UHGV virus genome: UHGV-0139735
Length of the DNA: 25,077 nucleotides
From: a virus
Reading direction: 5' to 3' (one strand)
Position numbers and translations under genes: made by a program. The notes under the pieces were generated by a model. The model did not search any database. It worked only from the letters and a program-made list of their open reading frames with translations, and was not told where the DNA came from. Position 1 is the stretch's first letter. Each line of letters begins with the position of its first letter. Positions 2,097 through 13,722 of the stretch are shown here, one piece after another.

Positions 2097-2282
2097 AAAA
2101 AATGCCCTCCAGTAGAGAGCATTTTTACTGTATGTATAACCAGTGTCAATGTATGAAATCCTGCGACCATACATCTCACTGAAGCCATAATGAAGTTAGC
2201 TATTTTTTGCTATGTGAGTATGTGACTTTTGCGGTTAGCCTGCGGCTCATTGTTATATTAGGCGCAGATATAAAAGCAAAAT

Positions 2283-4989: not shown

Positions 4990-5840
4990 GCACCATCCTG
5001 AAATGGGCAGGAAATAAAACCGCCATAATGTCCGAACTGAAAAAGCATCTTCCTGCTGGCCCGCGACTGGTTGAACCTTTCGCGGGTTCCTGTGCAGTGA
5101 TGATGGAGACGGATTACCCCAGCTATCTTGTTGCGGATATTAATCCTGATTTAATCAACCTCTATAAAAAGGTTGCTGCTGATTGTGAGGCGTTTATATC
5201 TCGTGCCAGAGCTTTATTTGAGGAAGCAAACAGGGAGGTGGCTTATTACAACATAAGGCAGGAGTTTAATTACTCCACTGAAATTACTGATTTCATGAAA
5301 GCGGTATATTTCCTGTATCTCAATCGTCACGGTTACCGTGGTTTATGTCGCTATAACAAGAGCGGGCATTTCAACATTCCCTACGGTAATTATAAAAATC
5401 CGTATTTCCCTGAAAAAGAAATTCGCGCATTTGCAGAGAAAGCCCAGCGGGCAACGTTTATCTGCGCCAGCTTTGATGAAACGCTGGCGATGTTGAAGGT
5501 GGGGGATGTGGTGTATTGCGATCCGCCTTATGACGGTACGTTTTCCGGCTATCACACTGATGGTTTCACTGAAGATGATCAGTATCACCTGGCATCCATT
5601 CTTGAACATCGGTCATCAGAAGGACATCCGGTCATTGTTTCTAACAGTAACACGTCTTTGACCCGGTCCCTTTATCGTAATTTCACTCACCACTACATCA
5701 GGGCGAAACGCAGCATCGGCGTTGCAGCGGGGGAGGGAAAATTTGCAACAGAGATGATTGCCACTAAATCTGCTAATTGGTTTAGTGCCGATTTTAGTAG
5801 GGGACGTGACTCTACTGTTATTTTCGGGGTGCAAGTGTGA
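4986..5840 (+). CDS. DNA N6-adenine methyltransferase (Dam family)
   Basis: From the ATG at 4986 (RBS GGAGG): N-terminal LKWAGNK motif and catalytic DPPY motif (VYCDPPYDG). The ORF-track start at 4926 is an upstream extension. Confidence 0.85.
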
Positions 5841-6667
5841 AAGAAATGCACCACGGAATTCATCATTTCCATGGGACGCCTGTCTGGGGAAGTGCTGGCG
5901 ACGTTCATCGTATTGCGGTGAGCGGAGCTGGCGCTTTCGTCTCCTATGTACGACCAGATCAGATTGCGGCGTCCATTCAGCACGCTCAGGTCGTCGGCAT
6001 TGATAACGGCGCATTTTCTGCATGGGTGCGTGGGCTAAAAATTAACTGGAGTGATTTTTATAAATGGCTCCTGAACTATTACCACCATCCTAAGGTCGCT
6101 TTTTTTGTCATTCCTGATGTTGTGGACGGAGGTGAACGTGACAATGATGCCCTGATAAACGAAGTTCCGAAAATGTTCTACGGGAAGGCAACTCCCGTCT
6201 GGCATCTGCACGAGTCAATCGATCGGCTTATCGAGCTATGTCGTGAATGGCCTCGTGTCTGCTTTGGATCGTCTGGTGAATATGCGGCTATCAGAACTGC
6301 GCACTGGCATCGTCGTATGCAGGACGCTTTTGAAGCAATTTATTGCCGACACAATTTCAAAACAGCTGTTCATGGTTTGCGCATGCTTGACGGTCGTGTG
6401 TTGGGAAATTACCCACTGGCGACTGCCGACAGTACAAATCTTGCCTGCAATGTCCCCAAATTTAATAGCAAATATCCTGAGCTGACGCGGGCTATTCAGG
6501 AGGCTGAGTATTCGCGCAATCTGACGGAAAAGGAGCTGAAAGCTGTCATTCTGAAAAACCGTTGCGCAATTTTAAAAGGTGCAATTGAAGCTGTTCGCCC
6601 ACCTTCAGTTTCTGATTGGCTGTCGAATGGTTTGCAGCCTTCACAGCTCGAACTGGAGATTGCGTAA
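5837..6667 (+). CDS. Hypothetical protein (~276 aa) translationally coupled to the methyltransferase; possible DNA-modification enzyme (weak, unverified TGT/DpdA-like motifs)
   Basis: GTG at 5837 overlaps the Dam stop; an alternative ATG lies at 5846. Contains [12 protein letters not shown], which resembles the DSGGF active-site strand of tRNA-guanine transglycosylases; this is eye-level similarity only. Confidence 0.5.
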
Positions 6668-9009
6668 TGAACTACAGCTATTCCTGGAATGCTGAGAAAA
6701 AAGCAATCAATCCTTACGTAGAGACGGAAGAGCAATCTTCAGTTTCTGCGCTTTCAAACCTGATCGCTCTGTACGCTGCCGATAACGAGCAGGAACAGCT
6801 GCGCCGCGAGGCACTGAGTGATCAGGTCTGGGAGCGTTATTTCTTTAATGAATCCCGTGATCCTGTCCAGCGCGAAATGGAGCAGGATAAGCTCATTAGT
6901 CGGGCAAAGCTGGCGCATGAGCAGCAGCGTTTTAATCCAGATATGGTCATTCTGGCGGACGTTAATGCCCAGCCTTCCCATATCAGCAAGCCACTGATGC
7001 AACGTATTGAATACTTCAGCAGCCTGGGCAGGCCAAAGGCTTATTCCCGCTATTTGCGTGAGACGATTAAGCCATGTCTGGAACGGCTGGAGCATGTACG
7101 CGACTGTCAGCTATCCACTTCTTTTCGCTTTATGGCAAGCCATGAAGGGCTGGACGGCCTGCTGATCCTGCCTGAAATGAGTCAGGATCAGGTGAAACGC
7201 CTGTCCACCCTGGTAGCTGCGCATATGAGCATGTGCCTTGATGCAGCTTGTGGCGATTTGTATGTCACCGATGACGTTAAGCCAGAAGAAATCCGCAAGA
7301 CATGGGAAAAGGTGGCAGCGGAAACCCTGCGTCTGGATGTCATCCCGCCTGCGTTTGAGCAACTCCGCCGGAAAAGAAACCGCCGTAAACCCGTGCCCTA
7401 TGAACTCATTCCGGGTTCGCTGGCGCGTATGTTGTGCGCTGACTGGTGGTACCGGAAATTATGGAAGATGCGTTGCGAATGGCGGGAAGAGCAGTTGCGT
7501 GCTGTCTGCCTGGTCAGCAAAAAAGCATCTCCCTATGTCAGCTATGAAGCCGTGATGCATAAACGTGAGCAGCGCCGTAAGTCGCTGGAGTTTTTTCGTT
7601 CTCATGAACTGGTGAACGAAGACGGCGACACGCTGGACATGGAGGATGTGGTAAACGCCAGCAGCAGCAACCCTGCGCATCGCCGCAATGAGATGATGGC
7701 CTGTGTTAAAGGCCTGGAGCTTATCGCGGAAATGCGCGGTGACTGCGCCGTTTTCTACACCATCACCTGTCCGTCACGTTTCCATTCCACGCTAAATAAT
7801 GGCAGGCCCAACCCAACTTGGACAAATGCGACGGTAAGACAAAGCAGTGATTATCTGGTCGGCATGTTTGCTGCATTTCGTAAGGCGATGCACAAAGCCG
7901 GATTGCGGTGGTATGGCGTGCGGGTGGCTGAGCCGCATCATGACGGTACAGTTCACTGGCACCTGTTGTGTTTTATGCGCAAAAAAGACCGCCGCGCCAT
8001 CACTGCATTACTGCGTAAGTTTGCCATCCGTGAAGACCGCGAGGAACTGGGCAATAACACTGGGCCGCGCTTTAAGTCTGAGTTGATTAACCCGCGCAAA
8101 GGTACGCCAACAAGCTACATCGCGAAATACATCAGTAAGAACATTGACGGGCGTGGTCTGGCTGGCGAGATCAGCAAGGAAACGGGGAAATCCCTGCGTG
8201 ATAATGCTGAATACGTTAATGCCTGGGCGTCTCTGCATCGTGTTCAGCAATTCCGCTTCTTTGGCATTCCGGGGCGTCAGGCTTACCGTGAACTGCGATT
8301 GCTGGCTGGTCAGGCGGCAAGGCAACAGGGGGACAAAAAAGCAGGTGCGCCGGTACTGGATAACCCGCGCCTTGATGCCATCCTGGCTGCTGCTGATGCT
8401 GGTTGTTTTGCCACCTACATCATGAAGCAGGGCGGCGTACTGGTTCCCCGCAAATATCACCTCATCAGAACCGCTTATGAAATCAACGAAGAGCCGACCG
8501 CCTATGGCGATCACGGCATTCGTATTTATGGCATCTGGTCACCTATTGCAGAGGGCAAGATCTGCACTCATGCCGTGAAGTGGAAAATGGTTCGTAAGGC
8601 CGTTGATGTTCAGGAGGCGGCAGCCGACCAGGGCGCTTGCGCCCCTTGGACTCGTGGCAATAACTGTCCCCCTGTTGAAAATTTGAACCAATCAGGGGGC
8701 GATTTACCAGAAGCCAGTGGGCCGGAGTCGCTGCCGGATCTTCATAATCTGAGCGCGAAGGAACGACGGGAGCTGACGGCGCGGCTGAGATTGGTAAAAC
8801 CTAAGCGGCGGAAAGGGTACAAACAGCAGATTAGCAATCATCAGCGCCAGCAGCTTGATGCTGAACTGAGGTCTAGGGGGTTCGATGCGAGTGATACCGA
8901 GGTGGATCTGCTTTTGCGTGGTGGCAGTATCCCGTCCGGGGCCGGGCTGCGTTTGTTCTATCGAAACCAGCGCCTGCAGGAAGATGATAAATGGCGGCAG
9001 TGGTACTAA
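6667..9009 (+). CDS. A: Rolling-circle replication initiator, P2 gpA family (HUH endonuclease)
   Basis: HUH motif ([10 protein letters not shown]) and two-tyrosine motif ([10 protein letters not shown]) as in P2 A protein. ATG at 6667 overlaps the upstream stop (TAATG); the ORF-track start at 6616 is possible but less likely. Confidence 0.85.
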
Positions 9010-9043
9010 TGTGAGAGTATTTTATATTCATATTCAAAAATGC

Positions 9044-9073
9044 CAGCCTAACAAATCAGGCTGACATTTTTTT
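9044..9073. terminator. Bidirectional rho-independent terminator between convergent genes
   Basis: Stem cagcct / aggctg with an 8-nt loop, followed by TTTTTTT on the plus strand and an A/T-rich tract on the minus strand. Sits between the A stop (9009) and the minus-strand gene end (9081). Confidence 0.6.
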
Positions 9074-9080
9074 ACTTACT

Positions 9081-9539
9081 CTATTTAGTTTTTTCAATCA
9101 TAGTGCTTTCGGCTTTTGAATATACACTATTAATAGTGGTGATTTTTGTAGTTAATGCTATACAAACTAGACTCAGAAGTAAGACACCAATTGATATTGT
9201 ATTGTTGCTGAGTATTATATGTAGACAAATAGAATAAATTGCAACGATGACTATTGCTACGAAAACAAAGATTGCCATTAAATTATGTGCTTTGATGTAG
9301 TCCTCAGGGGTTAATATGTAGCTTATGTTTATGATTATAAATAAAATTAAAAATGCTCCCCCAATCCATTTGGGTAGGGCTGTTTCTTTTTTTGATACTG
9401 CAGGTGTGGTTCTTGGGATCGATTCTACGAAGGATTTAAGATTTCCCATGTCAGTATTGTTTAATGCTGCACTTTCTGCTTCGAATTTTGAAACAGTGCC
9501 ATCAGGAAGGGTTGTAGTCCAGCTTATTTTTCCTGTCAT
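9081..9539 (-). CDS. Small integral membrane protein (152 aa: ~55-aa soluble N-terminus plus three predicted TM helices); cargo gene
   Basis: Hydrophobic segments WIGGAFLILFIIINISYIL, LMAIFVFVAIVIVAIYSICLHIIL and ISIGVLLLSLVCIALTT. Its start overlaps the upstream stop (ATGA). Strongly AT-rich versus the backbone. Confidence 0.65.
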   Translation of the reverse strand: MTGKISWTTTLPDGTVSKFEAESAALNNTDMGNLKSFVESIPRTTPAVSKKETALPKWIGGAFLILFIIINISYILTPEDYIKAHNLMAIFVFVAIVIVAIYSICLHIILSNNTISIGVLLLSLVCIALTTKITTINSVYSKAESTMIEKTK

Positions 9540-9910
9540 ACAACATCCCTTATTCTGAATATTCTATTAAAATCAATATCAACAGCAGAGTTCGACCACT
9601 CACTCTTTTGATTATCTTTAATTAGAATTGCTTTGTTCTCGTCAAAGATTATATTTGTACCACTAAACTCAATATGAGATAGGTCTCCTCTAAATATTTT
9701 TTGCTCAACGCTTTTGAATGCATCTTTTAATGATGCACACTCTTTTCTGAATAATGGTTTGGGGCTGTAAGTCCCTAAGTTTATAACTATTACGCCACTA
9801 CCATCTTTAGCAGGGTGAATGGAGAAAGATAGCGCTAATCCGTGATAGTGGGATTGTATTTTCTTCATTAATTTACGAACGTAATCATCATACCGCTTTC
9901 TATATATCAT
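9536..9910 (-). CDS. Hypothetical soluble protein (124 aa); first gene of the two-gene cargo operon
   Basis: Intact AT-rich ORF translationally coupled to the membrane-protein gene. No family recognised by eye. Confidence 0.6.
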   Translation of the reverse strand: MIYRKRYDDYVRKLMKKIQSHYHGLALSFSIHPAKDGSGVIVINLGTYSPKPLFRKECASLKDAFKSVEQKIFRGDLSHIEFSGTNIIFDENKAILIKDNQKSEWSNSAVDIDFNRIFRIRDVV

Positions 9911-10074
9911 TTTTTTCTTAATGGTTAGTTGTTTTTCGTATATTACAATACTAATAAATATATTGTCGATTCAAATAAAACGTTGTAGCCAAGCGGAAGA
10001 ATTTTAGTTTACGGATGGTTGTTTTTTGATCTCCATAGCCGAAGGCAATCTGAACTATAGTGATCATAAAAGTG

Positions 10075-10116
10075 TTTACATTCATGGAACTACGCATATA
10101 CTGTATATGTGTACAG
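10075..10116 (+). promoter_or_regulatory. SOS-regulated promoter: -35 TTTACA, 16-bp spacer, -10 TATACT, with an overlapping LexA box
   Basis: taCTGTATATGTGTACAGtg at 10101-10116 fits the LexA consensus CTGT-N8-ACAG and overlaps the -10 element and start site. It lies 33 bp upstream of the ATG at 10149. Confidence 0.7.
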
Positions 10117-10148
10117 TGCTTTCTGTGTGTTTGGTGATAGGAGGGAAG

Positions 10149-10337
10149 ATGCAAGACTATTTTTTGGAGTCGTTGAAGCTCCAGCGCATTGATTTTTTTG
10201 TCAAGCTTGTGGCGGCTAGTGAGTGTGATGATGAAGAGAAGCGACTGGCTATCCAGTGGGTTTCTGAGTTAACGGATGAGCTGATGGCAAAGATTCGTGC
10301 TCATGAATACAACCGCTCAATGGATCTTCCCAGTTAA
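10149..10337 (+). CDS. SOS-inducible small acidic protein (62 aa); candidate antirepressor-type (Tum-like role) gene
   Basis: Strong RBS (TAGGAGGG) 4 nt upstream of the ATG at 10149, directly downstream of the LexA-box promoter. The longer ORF-track version from 10026 would span the promoter itself. Confidence 0.6.
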   Translation: MQDYFLESLKLQRIDFFVKLVAASECDDEEKRLAIQWVSELTDELMAKIRAHEYNRSMDLPS

Positions 10338-10415
10338 CAGCAGGAACGTTGCTGGCGTGAGAACTAGCTTCTTACGTCAGCAAGGTTAAACAACGAGTAC
10401 AACGAGGCGTTAGCC

Positions 10416-10682
10416 ATGGGTAAATCCAACAGCAAATTCCAGACCGTTTATGAGGGGCAGGCGCTTGAACGTGACGAACTTGGCGGATGGGTTTTGTTTC
10501 AGCGTCGTGTAGAGTATGGCGGCAAGTACTGGATGGGAATAACCATGGATGATGTGTTTTTGTTTGGCTCCGATCATCCTGTATCAGGTAGTGAGGCGAT
10601 GGTCTTCATCATTGATTATGAGGGCGAGCAGCTCAGACGGTCTTTACCCGTTGGATACACCCCACAAATGCCGCTTTTCTGA
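10416..10682 (+). CDS. Hypothetical protein (88 aa), probably co-transcribed with the SOS-inducible ORF
   Basis: Backbone-like GC content; no terminator between the two ORFs; a terminator follows at 10750-10774. Confidence 0.5.
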   Translation: MGKSNSKFQTVYEGQALERDELGGWVLFQRRVEYGGKYWMGITMDDVFLFGSDHPVSGSEAMVFIIDYEGEQLRRSLPVGYTPQMPLF

Positions 10683-10749
10683 CAACCGGCTGGGTGCATG
10701 TCTATGCTGCATGAGATCGCATGATCGTTTGAGGATCGTTTTCGCTGAG

Positions 10750-10774
10750 GCCCGCCAGAACTGGCGGGCTTTTG
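10750..10774 (+). terminator. Rho-independent terminator (GCCCGCCAG-aa-CTGGCGGGC followed by TTTT)
   Basis: Perfect 9-bp GC-rich inverted repeat followed by a T-tract, 68 bp after the 88-aa ORF stop. Confidence 0.7.
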
Positions 10775-10818
10775 CTTATGTCATGCAGGTGCATGAAAAT
10801 CGCTCCATAAAGCGGGCA

Positions 10819-10837
10819 GGCGTGGCGGGGATACGAG
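10819..10837. other. Candidate cos (cohesive-end) site
   Basis: GGCGTGGCGGGGATACGAG followed by CGCGCGCTG. Its first 13 nt match the 19-nt cohesive end of 186 as I recall it (GGCGTGGCGGGGAAAGCAT; P2 is GGCGAGGCGGGGAAAGCAC). The recalled sequences were not checked against a reference. Confidence 0.4.
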
Positions 10838-10968
10838 CGCGCGCTGGGAGGTATAAGAATGAAGTACAATTAACTTCACTTTGTTGAGTAAAATGCTATA
10901 AGAATAATGCAAATTATTGAGTCCCATTAGTTCAAAACTTAGGGATATCTTATGTGAAAGGAGGTTAT

Positions 10969-12654
10969 ATGTTAGATAAATTGATTTTTAATTCAGGAAG
11001 TAATCCAACATCTAAATCTTCATTATCGGTTGACTTGACTCCATTGACAATTTTTGTGGGGCCGAATAATAGTGGTAAATCTAGAGCTTTAATCGATATA
11101 GAAAATCAACTGACAACCCGAAATGCAGCGCAGGGAGAAGTAATAAAACAGATATTAATCAAACCACTTTCTGAGGATGAAGCAAAAAAGGAAATTGAAT
11201 CTTTACAAGTTGAGCCAAACCAGGATGAAAAGCATGCGGGGCATGTTGTTTTATCTAGGCTAAACCTCCGTGGTGAAGGAATATCTAGGATTCTAGTGTA
11301 TTTGGATGGAATGTTAAGAGAATTCCAGCAACCCAATGAATTAAATCGGGAGCATCTATATCAATATTACTCGTTGCTGACTCTAAGGTTGGATGGTAGA
11401 AGTCGACTTTCCTTAACTTCAAGTCAAGGTTCATCCGATTTACAAGGAGAACCTACGAATAACCTTTCATTTCTTTTTAAAAATAATAAAGCAAGGATGG
11501 AGCTAAGAGATATCGTTTTTGATGCTTTCGGGAAGTATCTTGTTATTGATCCAACAAATATAGGTTATCTTAGAATTCGTCTTTCTGAGCGCGCTCCTGA
11601 GACTGAACAAGAAGAAAGAGGTTGGGATGAAAAGTCAGTGCTTTTTCATTCAAAAGCGTCATTGATTACAGAGGCTAGCGATGGTGTTAATGCTTTTGTT
11701 GGGATGATGATTTCGCTGATAGTTGGCTCACCAAAGGTGACTCTAATTGATGAGCCGGAAGCTTTTTTACATCCATCCTTATGCTCAAAGTTAGGAAAGG
11801 AAATATCTAGGATTAGTGCTCATAGTAATAAAAATGTGTTTATTTCAACGCATAGCGCTAATTTTTTAATGGGTTGTGTTCAAGGTAAAGTGCCATTGAA
11901 TATAGTTAGGCTTACTTTTGATGGTAAATCTGGTACGTCTAGATTACTAACAAAGGAACAATTGACGCCGCTCATGAGAAATCCGTTATTAAGATCTATT
12001 GGTGTGCTAAACGCATTGTTTTATAATTACGTTGTCGTTACTGAAGCGGATGCAGATAGGGCATTTTATCAAGAGATTAATGAGCGCTTATTGGCTGCTG
12101 GAGATCCTCGGGGTATTGAGGGATGCCTGTTTTTGAATGCTCAAAACAAACAAACTGTTTGGGATATAGTAAAACCCCTTCGTGAGCTAGGTATTCCCTG
12201 CGTTGGAGTGGTAGATATCGATATATTGAAGGAGGGAGGAGTTGTATGGAAAAAACCAATGCTTGGAGCTTTTTTTCCAGAAATGAAGCATGAAACTTTA
12301 GGTTTGGAAAGACAAAAGCTTTTTCAAGCCTTCAAAAATACGAATAAAAATATGAAGACAGATGGGGGCCTCTCCTTGTTATCGGGTTCAGATAAAACCG
12401 CCTGCTCTGAGTTTTTTAAATCCCTTTCAGATTATGGGGTTTTTGTCGTTCCAACGGGCGAGATCGAGTCTTGGTTGCAAAATCTTGAAATAGGTCGAGG
12501 AAAGAATACTTGGTTAACAAGTATTTTCGAGAAGATGGGGGATGATCCTAATGATGAATCATATGTGAAGCCATCTGAAGGTGATGTTTGGGATTTTATT
12601 GGGAATATAAAGCACTGGTTGGTTAACCCTGAAAGGAAGGGTATTCCCGAGTGA
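10969..12654 (+). CDS. OLD-family ABC-type ATPase with C-terminal TOPRIM nuclease domain (P2 Old-like anti-phage defence protein)
   Basis: 561 aa from the ATG at 10969 (RBS AAAGGAGG). Walker A GPNNSGKS, Walker B/D-loop VTLIDEPEAFLHPS, H-loop ISTHSAN, and C-terminal Toprim-like acidic motifs VVVTEADAD and VGVVDID. AT-rich relative to the backbone. Confidence 0.7.
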   Translation: MLDKLIFNSGSNPTSKSSLSVDLTPLTIFVGPNNSGKSRALIDIENQLTTRNAAQGEVIKQILIKPLSEDEAKKEIESLQVEPNQDEKHAGHVVLSRLNLRGEGISRILVYLDGMLREFQQPNELNREHLYQYYSLLTLRLDGRSRLSLTSSQGSSDLQGEPTNNLSFLFKNNKARMELRDIVFDAFGKYLVIDPTNIGYLRIRLSERAPETEQEERGWDEKSVLFHSKASLITEASDGVNAFVGMMISLIVGSPKVTLIDEPEAFLHPSLCSKLGKEISRISAHSNKNVFISTHSANFLMGCVQGKVPLNIVRLTFDGKSGTSRLLTKEQLTPLMRNPLLRSIGVLNALFYNYVVVTEADADRAFYQEINERLLAAGDPRGIEGCLFLNAQNKQTVWDIVKPLRELGIPCVGVVDIDILKEGGVVWKKPMLGAFFPEMKHETLGLERQKLFQAFKNTNKNMKTDGGLSLLSGSDKTACSEFFKSLSDYGVFVVPTGEIESWLQNLEIGRGKNTWLTSIFEKMGDDPNDESYVKPSEGDVWDFIGNIKHWLVNPERKGIPE

Positions 12655-12690: not shown

Positions 12691-13722
12691 CTATGCAAGG
12701 TTATATTCATTAAATTGCATTATTGGCTCCTTTATCCATTCATTTACTTCTTGAAGCCTTTTTTGCAATGGAATTAGCTCATTACGGACAAAGACCCTGC
12801 TGGCTTTCTCCACATCCCCAAATCCCCCGACATTATTTGGCATTATCCCCATCATTTGTGGCGGCACACGATGCGCAGCCATCATGTCATCCCGGCTCAC
12901 GTTCTTGATATTCAGAAACTCATCCTTCGCCGCGACTTCTGACAACGGGATGATCTGAAGCCCGTCCTTTTTGCCGTTAGGCGAGTACATAAACAGGTTG
13001 CGGAAGTTGCCAGGGCCTTTGGCGCTTTTCATCGCATTGCGGAGGTTGTTCACATCCTCCTGGTTCTGCGCGGCATCGGTCATGTACATGATGAAGCCTG
13101 CATGACTGCCGTTAATGTAATACTTCCGGCGGAACAGCGTGGCGGACTCGTTGAGCAGGGCCGACGGAATGGCAGAAAGATAACCTGGCAGGCCGTAGAT
13201 CTCCTGGTTGATGTCAGGTTCCATCAGATGAAAAATGCTGCCTTTCGTGAACTGATACGGCTGGGTTGTCATACCGTATTGCACAAACCAGTAGGTATCC
13301 AGGTCTAACCCGCGTCGGGTGTATTTTGCCAGCGCAGGCTCAAGGGCTATAACTTCACCGAATCGGTTCGTGCGTTTCTCCAGGTAGGCGTTACCAAATA
13401 CCAGATAGTCCTGCACAAAACGCGAAAAAGCCTGTTGGCTGAGCAGCGGATGAGGGATATAGGTACTGGTCAGAATGTTGCACTTTACTGCAATCGGGGA
13501 ACTGTGATGCACGGCAGCCCGGAAGGTGCGCGCCAGTCCGTCAAAACTTACGGGTGGCTCATACCAGCGATCCGTCTGTACGCATTCCACATAGTCCAGC
13601 AGTTCGCGGCGGTCCAGTACAGGAATGGGATCACCAAAGCTGAAAGCTTCGGCTGAAGTTTGATTTTTATGCTGGCTCCGTTTCGTCGCAGCAGCGCGGT
13701 TTTTCTTACTCTTTCCCATCAA
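12691..13722 (-). CDS. Q: Portal protein (P2 gpQ)
   Basis: 343 aa (P2 Q is ~344 aa), located downstream of and overlapping the terminase ATPase gene, in P2 order. Confidence 0.85.
   Translation of the reverse strand: MMGKSKKNRAAATKRSQHKNQTSAEAFSFGDPIPVLDRRELLDYVECVQTDRWYEPPVSFDGLARTFRAAVHHSSPIAVKCNILTSTYIPHPLLSQQAFSRFVQDYLVFGNAYLEKRTNRFGEVIALEPALAKYTRRGLDLDTYWFVQYGMTTQPYQFTKGSIFHLMEPDINQEIYGLPGYLSAIPSALLNESATLFRRKYYINGSHAGFIMYMTDAAQNQEDVNNLRNAMKSAKGPGNFRNLFMYSPNGKKDGLQIIPLSEVAAKDEFLNIKNVSRDDMMAAHRVPPQMMGIMPNNVGGFGDVEKASRVFVRNELIPLQKRLQEVNEWIKEPIMQFNEYNLA

What the first reader, a model, noticed from the sequence alone, without database searches (positions are those of the whole stretch)
9081..9910. 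Unassigned two-gene cargo operon (soluble 124-aa protein plus 3-TM membrane protein) at the P2 tin/old position
Between the replication gene A and the SOS operon and cos lies a strongly AT-rich, oppositely oriented, translationally coupled pair (ATGA overlap). It is bracketed by a bidirectional terminator on the A side. This is the slot occupied by tin/old in P2 and a recognised hotspot for anti-phage cargo in P2-like prophages. Neither protein matches a family I can recognise. A small cytoplasmic protein paired with a small membrane protein is a common layout for abortive-infection or toxin-antitoxin type modules.
Basis: partly seen in the sequence, partly recalled or inferred. Interest (0 to 1): 0.75.

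Follow-up and report, generated by a model that had tools for sequence, protein, structure and literature searches.

The report
Uncharacterised two-gene membrane cassette in prophage
A 1.1-kb AT-rich insert in a phage-186-like E. coli prophage carries two real, co-translated genes (a small cytoplasmic protein with no known fold relative and a small three-helix membrane protein). The same pair travels together across several bacterial phyla, and it is probably an untested anti-phage or toxin-type module.

Summary
orfS (9536-9910, 124 aa) and orfM (9081-9539, 152 aa, about 3 TM helices) lie on the minus strand and share an ATGA overlap. GC is 33% against 54% in gene A. A bidirectional terminator sits on the A side, and a promoter conserved in three clades sits upstream.

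Related phages (186, Cartapus, 813R9, 4LV2017) go from gene A straight to the LexA-controlled SOS operon. The pair is therefore a roughly 1.1-kb insert (9011-10105). Only 17 of 1274 E. coli genomes with a matching gene A carry it.

Neither protein matches Pfam, NCBIfam, PADLOC or PDB. The orfS model is confident (pLDDT 90) but has no fold neighbour.

orfS belongs to a rare family (66 clusters at 50% identity) in Proteobacteria, Nitrospirota and Bacteroidota. In 100 of 102 loci examined it is followed at once by a small membrane partner, usually with a 4-nt overlap. No third gene is conserved.

Contexts include two unrelated prophage types, integrative elements, a toxin-antitoxin/methylase island and a Type III restriction operon. 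Many loci are housekeeping.

Best reading (about 0.4): a lysogen-expressed exclusion or abortive-infection module with a membrane effector. This is unproven. The "tin/old slot" needs refining: cos lies at about 10.82 kb, and the Old-like gene occupies a second slot between cos and the portal gene.

The parts
9536..9910 (-). orfS: 124-aa basic (pI 9.5) cytoplasmic protein with an alpha/beta fold. It is a divergent member of an uncharacterised family of about 125 aa.
   Evidence: ORF. 66 family representatives at E<=1e-3 among 1.84 billion proteins. Invariant Y10, T85, W105 and a G-T-N motif. AF2 pLDDT 90.4. No Pfam, PADLOC, NCBIfam, PDB or BFVD relative. phrog_18061 (function unknown) at E 1.5e-13.
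9081..9539 (-). orfM: 152-aa membrane protein. It has a soluble N-terminal segment of about 57 aa, three hydrophobic helices and a short charged tail.
   Evidence: ORF. Hydropathy. The N-terminal 45 codons are under strong purifying selection. The same architecture occurs in the partner gene of distant loci. Sequence link to those partners is weak: hhalign probability 76% at E 2e-5, and HMM score 10.5 bits with 5 of 2000 shuffles reaching it.
9536..9551 (-). Translational-coupling junction: AAGGGA Shine-Dalgarno (9551-9546), orfM ATG (9539-9537) and overlapping orfS TGA (9538-9536).
   Evidence: Read from the sequence. A 4-nt overlap is also the commonest spacing in relatives, seen in 43 of 70 metagenome loci.
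9940..9969 (-). Predicted sigma-70 promoter of the pair (TCGACA, 18-nt spacer, TAATAT with a TG just upstream).
   Evidence: Consensus scan. This block is conserved in the E. coli, Klebsiella and Enterobacter-type clades while the surrounding DNA diverges. There is no LexA box in it. Not tested experimentally.
9036..9073 (.). Bidirectional intrinsic terminator between gene A and orfM (stem-loop 9044-9063, with an A-run before and a T-run after).
   Evidence: -14.2 and -21.2 kcal/mol, z -6.1 and -6.4.
9011..10105 (.). Extent of the AT-rich insert relative to related phages that lack the pair.
   Evidence: BLAST of the empty A|p95 junctions of Cartapus, vB_EcoM-813R9 and 4LV2017 against the window. 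Homology stops at about 9010 and resumes at 10106. GC is 0.33.

Best explanation
The pair is a self-contained, horizontally acquired 'moron' cassette. I propose that the prophage expresses it from its own constitutive promoter during lysogeny.

In this model OrfS stays in the cytoplasm and binds the conserved N-terminal cytoplasmic segment of OrfM, a small three-helix inner-membrane protein. Together they act as a phage-exclusion module. OrfM is the membrane effector, either collapsing membrane integrity or potential (abortive infection) or blocking genome entry. OrfS is its sensor or regulator.

**Shown**
- The genes are real and under purifying selection.
- They form an insert that related phages lack.
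- The predicted promoter is conserved in three clades and the terminator folds strongly; neither has been tested experimentally.
- The order 'soluble gene then membrane gene', with translational coupling, is kept across phyla, and no third gene is conserved.
- The cassette recurs in mobile and defence contexts.

**Inferred**
- The OrfS-OrfM contact.
- Any effect on the membrane.
- The anti-phage role.
For: - **Accessory insert in the gpA-gpQ hotspot:**
- **Own expression signals:** conserved promoter and bidirectional terminator, with no LexA box in the promoter.
- **Near-universal synteny:** the membrane partner follows in 20 of 21 genome loci, 10 of 10 viral contigs and 70 of 71 metagenome loci, mostly with a 4-nt overlap.
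- **Autonomous cassette:** no conserved third gene in 59 loci.
- **Mobile or defence contexts:**
  - 186-like prophages alongside Old, GmrSD, RES, TIR and GAPS4 cargo;
  - an unrelated prophage, between its integrase and its lysis genes;
  - a Nitrospira island with HepT/MNT, an SNF2 helicase and a methylase;
  - an integrase element with Cas6-Csf5;
  - a Bacteroides locus where the pair sits between Type III Mod and Res;
  - AbiTii, BrxA and restriction-endonuclease domains among the nearest neighbours.
- **Constrained binding surface:** strong purifying selection on the OrfM N-terminal segment.
- **Precedent:** prophage pairs of a soluble protein plus a membrane protein that defend via loss of membrane potential, namely Sbash gp30/31 (PMC6426596) and Butters gp30/31 (PMC7542560). 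Lambda RexAB is a further precedent, from my own knowledge.
Against: - There is no experimental evidence of any kind.
- Neither protein hits PADLOC, even using distant family members as queries.
- The pair is not among the systems tested by Rousset et al., nor in the supplementary tables held here for Vassallo et al..
- Many loci are flanked by housekeeping genes such as tRNA synthetases and fatty-acid synthesis genes. The defence association is therefore modest and was not tested against a background.
- The family is absent from 50,697 deposited phage genomes and 72,556 plasmids.
- OrfM topology is ambiguous in the window protein, because positive charges flank both ends.
- The OrfM structure model is unreliable (pLDDT 57).
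Confidence: 0.4

Rival explanations
1. A toxin-antitoxin or addiction module. OrfM would be a small membrane toxin and OrfS its co-translated cytoplasmic antitoxin. The main role would be to stabilise the prophage or island rather than to exclude phages. The two roles can overlap.
For: - Two small overlapping genes, with the soluble gene first, as in many type II and type V pairs.
- An autonomous cassette scattered among unrelated and often housekeeping neighbourhoods across phyla, as toxin-antitoxin loci typically are.
- Neighbours include other toxin-antitoxin genes: HepT/MNT and Xre-MbcA/ParS.
Against: - OrfS shows no HTH, RHH or AbrB-type DNA-binding domain and no known antitoxin fold.
- No Rfam RNA is found, so a type I system is unlikely.
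- Both proteins diverge at similar rates between clades (72% and 69% identity).
- Toxicity has not been tested.
Confidence: 0.2
2. A lysogenic-conversion or membrane-physiology cassette unrelated to phage defence. Examples would be stress tolerance, small-molecule or ion handling, or protection against a bacteriocin or other envelope-targeting agent.
For: - Many family loci lie among housekeeping genes with no mobile-element marker nearby.
- Two loci neighbour NfeD/ClpP-type membrane protease genes.
- The gpA-gpQ interval also carries non-defence cargo such as partition systems and a cytolethal distending toxin (Rousset et al.).
Against: - There is no transporter, enzyme or signalling domain in either protein.
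- The pair is repeatedly captured by unrelated temperate phages and integrative elements, and sits inside a Type III restriction operon.
Confidence: 0.2
3. A function in the phage's own life cycle. Examples would be a lysis-timing (holin/antiholin-like) pair or a helper of replication or induction placed next to gene A and the SOS operon.
For: - Position between the replication gene and the SOS operon.
- OrfM is a small protein with multiple membrane helices and a charged tail, superficially like a holin.
Against: - Closely related phages, including the well-studied 186, lack it.
- Only 17 of 1274 E. coli genomes with a matching gene A have it.
- It is transcribed against the early operon from its own promoter.
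- Homologous pairs occur in non-phage chromosomal loci.
- It is not next to an endolysin.
Confidence: 0.07

Closest known systems
Lambda RexA/RexB and the RexAB-like mycobacteriophage pairs (Sbash gp30/gp31, Butters gp30/gp31)
   Same: Prophage-borne pairs of adjacent genes, one product soluble and one an integral membrane protein, expressed in the lysogen. For Sbash the proposed outcome is loss of membrane potential on infection by a specific phage (PMC6426596). For Butters, the gp30-gp31 interaction confers heterotypic defence (PMC7542560).
   Different: There is no sequence or fold similarity. OrfS at 124 aa is far smaller than RexA (about 279 aa, from my own knowledge). OrfM has about 3 predicted helices plus a 57-aa cytoplasmic head, whereas RexB has 4 helices. 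Function here is untested.
P2 tin and old (the classical cargo of the gpA-gpQ interval)
   Same: Same interval of a P2-family genome, non-essential, and in P2 also transcribed against gene A. The window carries an Old-like ATPase-TOPRIM gene in the same interval.
   Different: The orfS profile against Tin gives hhalign probability 0.5%, and against 186 Orf97 1.7%. The pair lies in a distinct sub-slot between A and p95. The Old-like gene lies beyond cos, on the opposite strand to P2 old.
'Hydrolase + 3TM' system of P4-like satellites (Rousset et al. 2022)
   Same: A validated two-gene hotspot system that pairs a soluble protein with a three-helix membrane protein. Its authors propose abortive infection.
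   Different: The soluble partner there is a HAD-like hydrolase of about 290 aa, whereas OrfS has no HAD domain. OrfM against its 3TM protein gives BLASTP E = 15. No PADLOC hit.
Toxin-antitoxin pairs with small membrane toxins (for example GhoS/GhoT, from my own knowledge)
   Same: A small soluble gene followed by a small membrane-protein gene, compact and mobile.
   Different: GhoT-type toxins are about 50-60 aa. OrfM is 152 aa with a conserved cytoplasmic head. OrfS has no detectable resemblance to known antitoxins. Toxicity is untested.

Membership tests
Cargo of the P2-family gpA-gpQ hotspot (Rousset et al. 2022) | Located between the replication gene gpA and the portal gene gpQ | tested here: met
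   A is at 6616-9009, the pair at 9081-9910 and the portal gene at 12691-13722. The exact protein arrangement is listed in their Table S5A.
Cargo of the P2-family gpA-gpQ hotspot (Rousset et al. 2022) | Variable presence among otherwise related prophages | tested here: met
   Absent from 186, Cartapus, 813R9 and 4LV2017. Present in 17 of 1274 E. coli genomes with a matching gene A.
Moron (autonomous accessory transcription unit in a phage genome) | Own promoter and terminator, deviant base composition, and present or absent between relatives | tested here: met
   Predicted promoter conserved in three clades. Strong bidirectional terminator. GC 0.33 against 0.54. Insert boundaries mapped. Promoter activity was not measured.
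P2 Tin | Homology to P2 Tin | tested here: not met
   hhalign of the orfS family profile against Tin gives probability 0.5%.
OLD-family nucleases | ABC-type ATPase plus TOPRIM domains | tested here: not met
   Neither orfS nor orfM has such a domain. The neighbouring gene at 10954-12654 does: AAA_15, AAA_21, OLD-like_TOPRIM, and PADLOC Old at 1e-20.
RexAB-type exclusion | Sequence or profile similarity to RexA or RexB | tested here: not met
   No Pfam, PADLOC or NCBIfam hit for either protein or for distant family members.
RexAB-type exclusion | Prophage-expressed soluble sensor plus polytopic membrane protein that depolarises the cell on infection | not testable with these tools
   The architecture is compatible. 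Depolarisation and phage triggering need experiments.
Type II toxin-antitoxin module | Two small co-transcribed, overlapping genes | tested here: met
   ATGA overlap, conserved in relatives.
Type II toxin-antitoxin module | Antitoxin with a recognisable DNA-binding or known antitoxin fold | tested here: not met
Type II toxin-antitoxin module | Toxin is toxic alone and is neutralised by its partner | not testable with these tools
   Needs expression experiments.
Holin / antiholin | Part of the lysis cassette, next to an endolysin, and conserved among related phages | tested here: not met
   The pair lies between gene A and the SOS operon and is absent from related phages.
Hydrolase + 3TM (Rousset et al.) | HAD-like hydrolase plus a homologous 3-TM protein | tested here: not met
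   No HAD domain. BLASTP E = 15 against the published 3TM protein.
orfS/orfM family as defined here (uncharacterised) | Soluble protein of about 125 aa with Y10, G-T-N and W105, followed directly by a protein of about 125-155 aa with a short soluble head and 3 hydrophobic helices | tested here: met
   - orfS: phmmer E 7e-14 to 1e-9 against distant members, and the profile retrieves the window clade at 1e-33.
- Partner: same architecture and position. Sequence homology of orfM itself is only weakly supported.

The most novel reading that the evidence does not exclude
The orfS/orfM pair would define a previously unrecognised anti-phage system spanning several phyla. It would be an autonomous two-gene cassette whose cytoplasmic component has a fold with no solved or viral relative. 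Its three-helix partner would be the membrane effector. Temperate phages and restriction-modification loci have captured it repeatedly: in one Bacteroides genome it sits between Type III Mod and Res. That position hints that it may serve as a second line that fires when restriction fails.
Probability: 0.3. Interest if true: 0.65.

Novelty: new variant of a known kind. Interest (0 to 1): 0.5.

Why it matters
P2-family prophages are a main source of E. coli anti-phage genes, yet much of their hotspot cargo is still labelled 'hypothetical'.

This pair is a clean candidate for testing:
- it is tiny (830 bp of coding sequence) and has its own predicted promoter and terminator;
- its synteny is near-universal across Proteobacteria, Nitrospirota and Bacteroidota;
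- it has no relative in any domain, defence or structure library searched.

If it is active, it would add a new minimal design of sensor plus membrane effector and a new protein fold to the defence repertoire.

The analysis also shows that in 186-like phages the 'gpA-gpQ hotspot' is really two slots separated by the SOS operon and cos, and the two slots turn over differently. That affects how hotspot cargo is catalogued.

Tried and rejected
- **Domain and defence libraries.** Pfam, PADLOC, PHROGs and NCBIfam were searched with both proteins and with distant family members. The only hit was phrog_18061, of unknown function.
- **PDB by sequence profile.** Nothing for either family.
- **orfM structure.** pLDDT was 57, so it was not used for fold search.
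- **Domain fusions.** The longer orfS-family proteins look like mis-called starts or spurious repeat proteins.
- **Conserved third gene.** None in 59 loci. The only recurrent neighbour is a C5 DNA methylase, in a few viral lineages.
- **Direct comparisons.** P2 Tin, 186 Orf97 and the Rousset 3TM protein are all unrelated.
- **Known RNAs.** No Rfam match at 8800-11000, which argues against a type I antitoxin RNA.
- **Deposited phages and plasmids.** No homologue.
- **Literature by accession or peptide.** The pair is only catalogued as 'hypothetical' in Rousset Table S5A. It is not among their tested systems. It is also not found in the supplementary tables held for Vassallo et al.. No supplements are held for the 2026 NAR paper.
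- **Canonical P2 cos 19-mer.** Not found with up to 3 mismatches. cos was located instead by aligning phage right ends.
- **Locus search with the full family alignment.** A conserved subset was used instead.
Full report
**1. What is in the sequence**

Two minus-strand ORFs fill 9081-9910. orfS (9536-9910) encodes 124 aa and orfM (9081-9539) encodes 152 aa. The junction on the coding strand reads AAGGGATGTTGTATGA. It contains a Shine-Dalgarno motif, then the orfM ATG 6 nt later, overlapping the orfS TGA.

The region is strongly AT-rich, with GC 0.33 over 9011-10105 against 0.54 in gene A. Gene A (6616-9009, Phage_GPA at E 6e-128) converges on the pair.

Between gene A and the pair lies a hairpin at 9044-9063, with an A-run before it and a T-run after it. 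It folds well on both strands (-14.2 and -21.2 kcal/mol, z about -6), so it is a bidirectional terminator.

OrfM has a soluble head of about 57 aa, three hydrophobic helices and a charged tail. OrfS is basic (pI 9.5) and has no signal peptide.

The ORFs are not chance. A stop-free run of 124 codons or more arose in 14 of 2000 composition-matched simulations. Both genes have homologues that differ mainly at synonymous sites.

**2. The pair is an insert in a 186-like prophage**

The window is a P2-family prophage of the 186 type, with CI, CII, Fil, Dam, A, portal and terminase genes.

Downstream of the pair is a promoter-like site overlapped by a near-consensus LexA box at 10099-10118. It precedes a 62-aa gene and an 88-aa gene. 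This is the equivalent of the 186 p95 SOS operon, which the 186 record annotates with a LexA site upstream of tum.

In 186, Cartapus, vB_EcoM-813R9 and Klebsiella phage 4LV2017, gene A is followed after roughly 110-190 bp by that SOS promoter. Aligning those empty junctions to the window shows that homology stops at about 9010 and resumes at 10106. The pair therefore sits on an insert of about 1.1 kb.

A block just upstream of orfS is conserved in the E. coli, Klebsiella and Enterobacter-type variants, while the DNA around it is not. The block reads TCGACA, an 18-nt spacer, then TAATAT preceded by TG. This is consistent with the pair having its own sigma-70 promoter. The block contains no LexA box.

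**3. How common it is in E. coli**

The exact DNA occurs in 17 of 5426 complete E. coli genomes, always on the chromosome next to 'replication endonuclease'. By contrast, 1274 genomes have a matching gene A segment. The pair is therefore rare accessory cargo, not a core gene.

RefSeq calls both products 'hypothetical protein'. It also starts orfS at Met15, giving 110 aa. The family alignment places the invariant Tyr10 and a conserved N-terminal helix upstream of Met15, so Met1 is the likelier start.

**4. Two slots, not one**

The right-end sequences of Cartapus, 186 and P2 align to window 10694-10831. That places cos at about 10819-10837, reading GGCGTGGCGGGGATACGAG, which is a variant of the P2 19-mer.

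An Old-like ATPase-TOPRIM gene (10954-12654; PADLOC Old at 1e-20) lies between cos and the portal gene.

In eight related prophages that carry a 72%-identical orfS, cos maps between the SOS-operon side and the portal side. The cargo between cos and portal varies: DUF4145, GAPS4, DUF6953, RES, GmrSD and TIR-SEFIR. The pair next to gene A stays the same.

The gpA-gpQ 'hotspot' of Rousset et al. and of the 2026 NAR survey is thus two sub-slots in this lineage. They are separated by the SOS operon and cos and turn over at different rates.

**5. The proteins belong to no described family**

Neither protein nor its distant relatives hit Pfam, NCBIfam or PADLOC above noise. orfS hits only phrog_18061, which has no known function. 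Profile searches of PDB sequences found nothing.

AlphaFold2 gave a confident orfS model with a 56-sequence alignment (pLDDT 90.4, pTM 0.85). Its secondary structure runs helix, two strands, a short helix, a long conserved loop, two strands, helix. The fold searches returned the following:

| Search | Best result |
|---|---|
| Foldseek against PDB | E 0.34 |
| Foldseek against BFVD | nothing at E<=0.001 |
| AlphaFold database library | unavailable |

The orfM model was poor (pLDDT 57) and was not used.

**6. A conserved two-gene cassette across phyla**

An exhaustive phmmer search of 1.84 billion representatives found 66 orfS relatives. Nearly all are 120-135 aa and align end to end. The invariant residues are Y10, T85 and W105, and there is a G-T-N motif. 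The enterobacterial clade is a divergent branch of this family.

Members occur in Nitrospira, Neptuniibacter, Nitrosomonas, Limnobacter, Thiohalobacter, delta-proteobacterial and Myxococcales MAGs, an Acidiferrales MAG, and Bacteroidota. The Bacteroidota include Fluviicola, Mariniflexile, Flavobacterium and Bacteroides.

In almost every locus the next gene encodes a protein of about 125-155 aa, with a short soluble head (consensus EG-PEEI--F---G) and three hydrophobic helices:

| Source of loci | Loci with the membrane partner |
|---|---|
| Genome and assembly loci | 20 of 21 |
| IMG/VR viral contigs | 10 of 10 |
| Evaluable metagenome loci | 70 of 71 (43 with a 4-nt overlap) |

Direct sequence evidence that the window's orfM is homologous to those partners is weak but above noise:
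- hhalign gives probability 76% at E 2e-5;
- the window orfM scores 10.5 bits against the partner HMM, and 5 of 2000 shuffles reach that;
- the Enterobacter-type variant scores 19.8 bits, and 0 of 2000 shuffles reach that.

Architecture and position are the same in all cases.

Within Enterobacteriaceae the first 45 codons of orfM show 21 synonymous-only changes against 1 replacement. That makes it the most constrained part of the cassette and a candidate binding surface.

No third gene is conserved in 59 loci.

**7. Genomic company**

Several contexts are mobile or defensive:
- the P2-family hotspot, beside known defence cargo;
- an unrelated prophage, where the pair lies between integrase/early genes and the lysis cassette;
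- integrase-bearing elements with SRAP and a type IV Cas6;
- a Nitrospira island with HepT/MNT, a Lon-like protein, an SNF2 helicase and a large methylase;
- a Bacteroides locus where the pair sits in the same orientation between Type III Mod and Res, with an HKD-SNF2 gene nearby;
- C5 DNA methylases close by in several viral lineages;
- AbiTii (twice), BrxA and a restriction-endonuclease domain among 149 nearest neighbours.

Many other loci are surrounded by housekeeping genes. I could not compute a background-corrected defence score.

The family is absent from 50,697 deposited phage genomes and 72,556 plasmids.

**8. What is already known about it**

[quoted passage not shown] The accessions are WP_063090871, WP_001682736, WP_063090872, WP_127699595 and WP_063090869.

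The pair is not among their cloned systems, active or inactive. It was also not found in the supplementary tables held here for Vassallo et al.. A full-text search for the accessions found nothing.

It is unrelated to P2 Tin, to 186 Orf97 and to the membrane protein of the 'Hydrolase + 3TM' system. No Rfam RNA lies in or near it.

**9. Interpretation**

The evidence establishes a real, mobile, self-contained two-gene cassette. Its products very probably work together, one in the cytoplasm and one in the membrane.

By analogy with RexAB and the mycobacteriophage gp30/gp31 pairs, and given its position and company, I rank the readings as follows:

| Reading | Confidence |
|---|---|
| Lysogen-expressed phage exclusion or abortive infection with a membrane effector | about 0.4 |
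| Addiction-type toxin-antitoxin module | about 0.2 |
| Membrane function unrelated to defence | about 0.2 |
| Role in the phage's own life cycle | about 0.07 |

The steps from 'cassette' to 'defence' are inference only.

**10. Verdict**

The novelty lies in the protein families and the fold, not in the kind of system. Interest is moderate. This is a well-defined, cheap-to-test candidate among the many uncharacterised cargoes of the hotspot.

Noticed in passing
window 10690-10850 (cos about 10819-10837) and 10954-12654: cos maps between the SOS operon and the Old-like ATPase-TOPRIM gene. It is not next to the portal gene. Only 36 bp and a terminator hairpin separate the Old-like stop (12654) from the portal stop (12691). 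The cohesive-end 19-mer (GGCGTGGCGGGGATACGAG) differs from the P2 sequence at 5 positions.
   Followed up: partly
window 10416-10682: The second gene of the LexA-controlled operon is an 88-aa protein (phrog_2100, no Pfam hit). 186 and most relatives have a DinI/Tum-type antirepressor at this position. How this prophage couples SOS to induction is unclear.
   Followed up: no
window 9869-9910 (orfS N-terminus): RefSeq/PGAP annotates orfS as 110 aa from Met15. That cuts off a conserved N-terminal helix and the family-invariant Tyr10. The 124-aa form is also the one present in most protein databases.
   Followed up: yes
L039 5966-11916 (uncultured Bacteroides, USAN01000001.1): An orfS/orfM homologue pair lies in the same orientation between the Mod (5966-7963) and Res (8872-11916) genes of a Type III restriction-modification system. 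An HKD-SNF2 gene lies upstream.
   Followed up: partly
L051/L115, L052/L117, L053, L056, L057 (IMG/VR and metagenome contigs): A C5 cytosine DNA methylase is the only recurrent non-identical neighbour of the cassette, lying 0.05-2.3 kb away in several viral lineages. Enterobacterial relatives L007 and L009 also carry a C5 methylase just upstream of gene A.
   Followed up: partly
L003, L005, L008 5595-5852 and L010 5600-5990: In the Enterobacter-type and Klebsiella variants, the DNA between the pair's promoter and the SOS promoter is longer. Some variants hold an extra ORF of 67-85 aa, so the A|p95 slot itself is modular.
   Followed up: no
window 2126-2145: A second, weaker LexA-box-like site (TACTGTATGTATAACCAGTG, 3 mismatches) lies in the low-GC region upstream of the cI/int end of the prophage.
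   Followed up: no
window 5837-6667: A 276-aa ORF of unknown function sits between the Dam methylase and gene A and overlaps the start of A. It is annotated 'hypothetical' in RefSeq (WP_001420002).
   Followed up: no
L049 6725-7780 and one further locus in alignment A7: In two loci an NfeD/ClpP-type (S49) membrane-associated protease gene lies directly upstream of the cassette.
   Followed up: no
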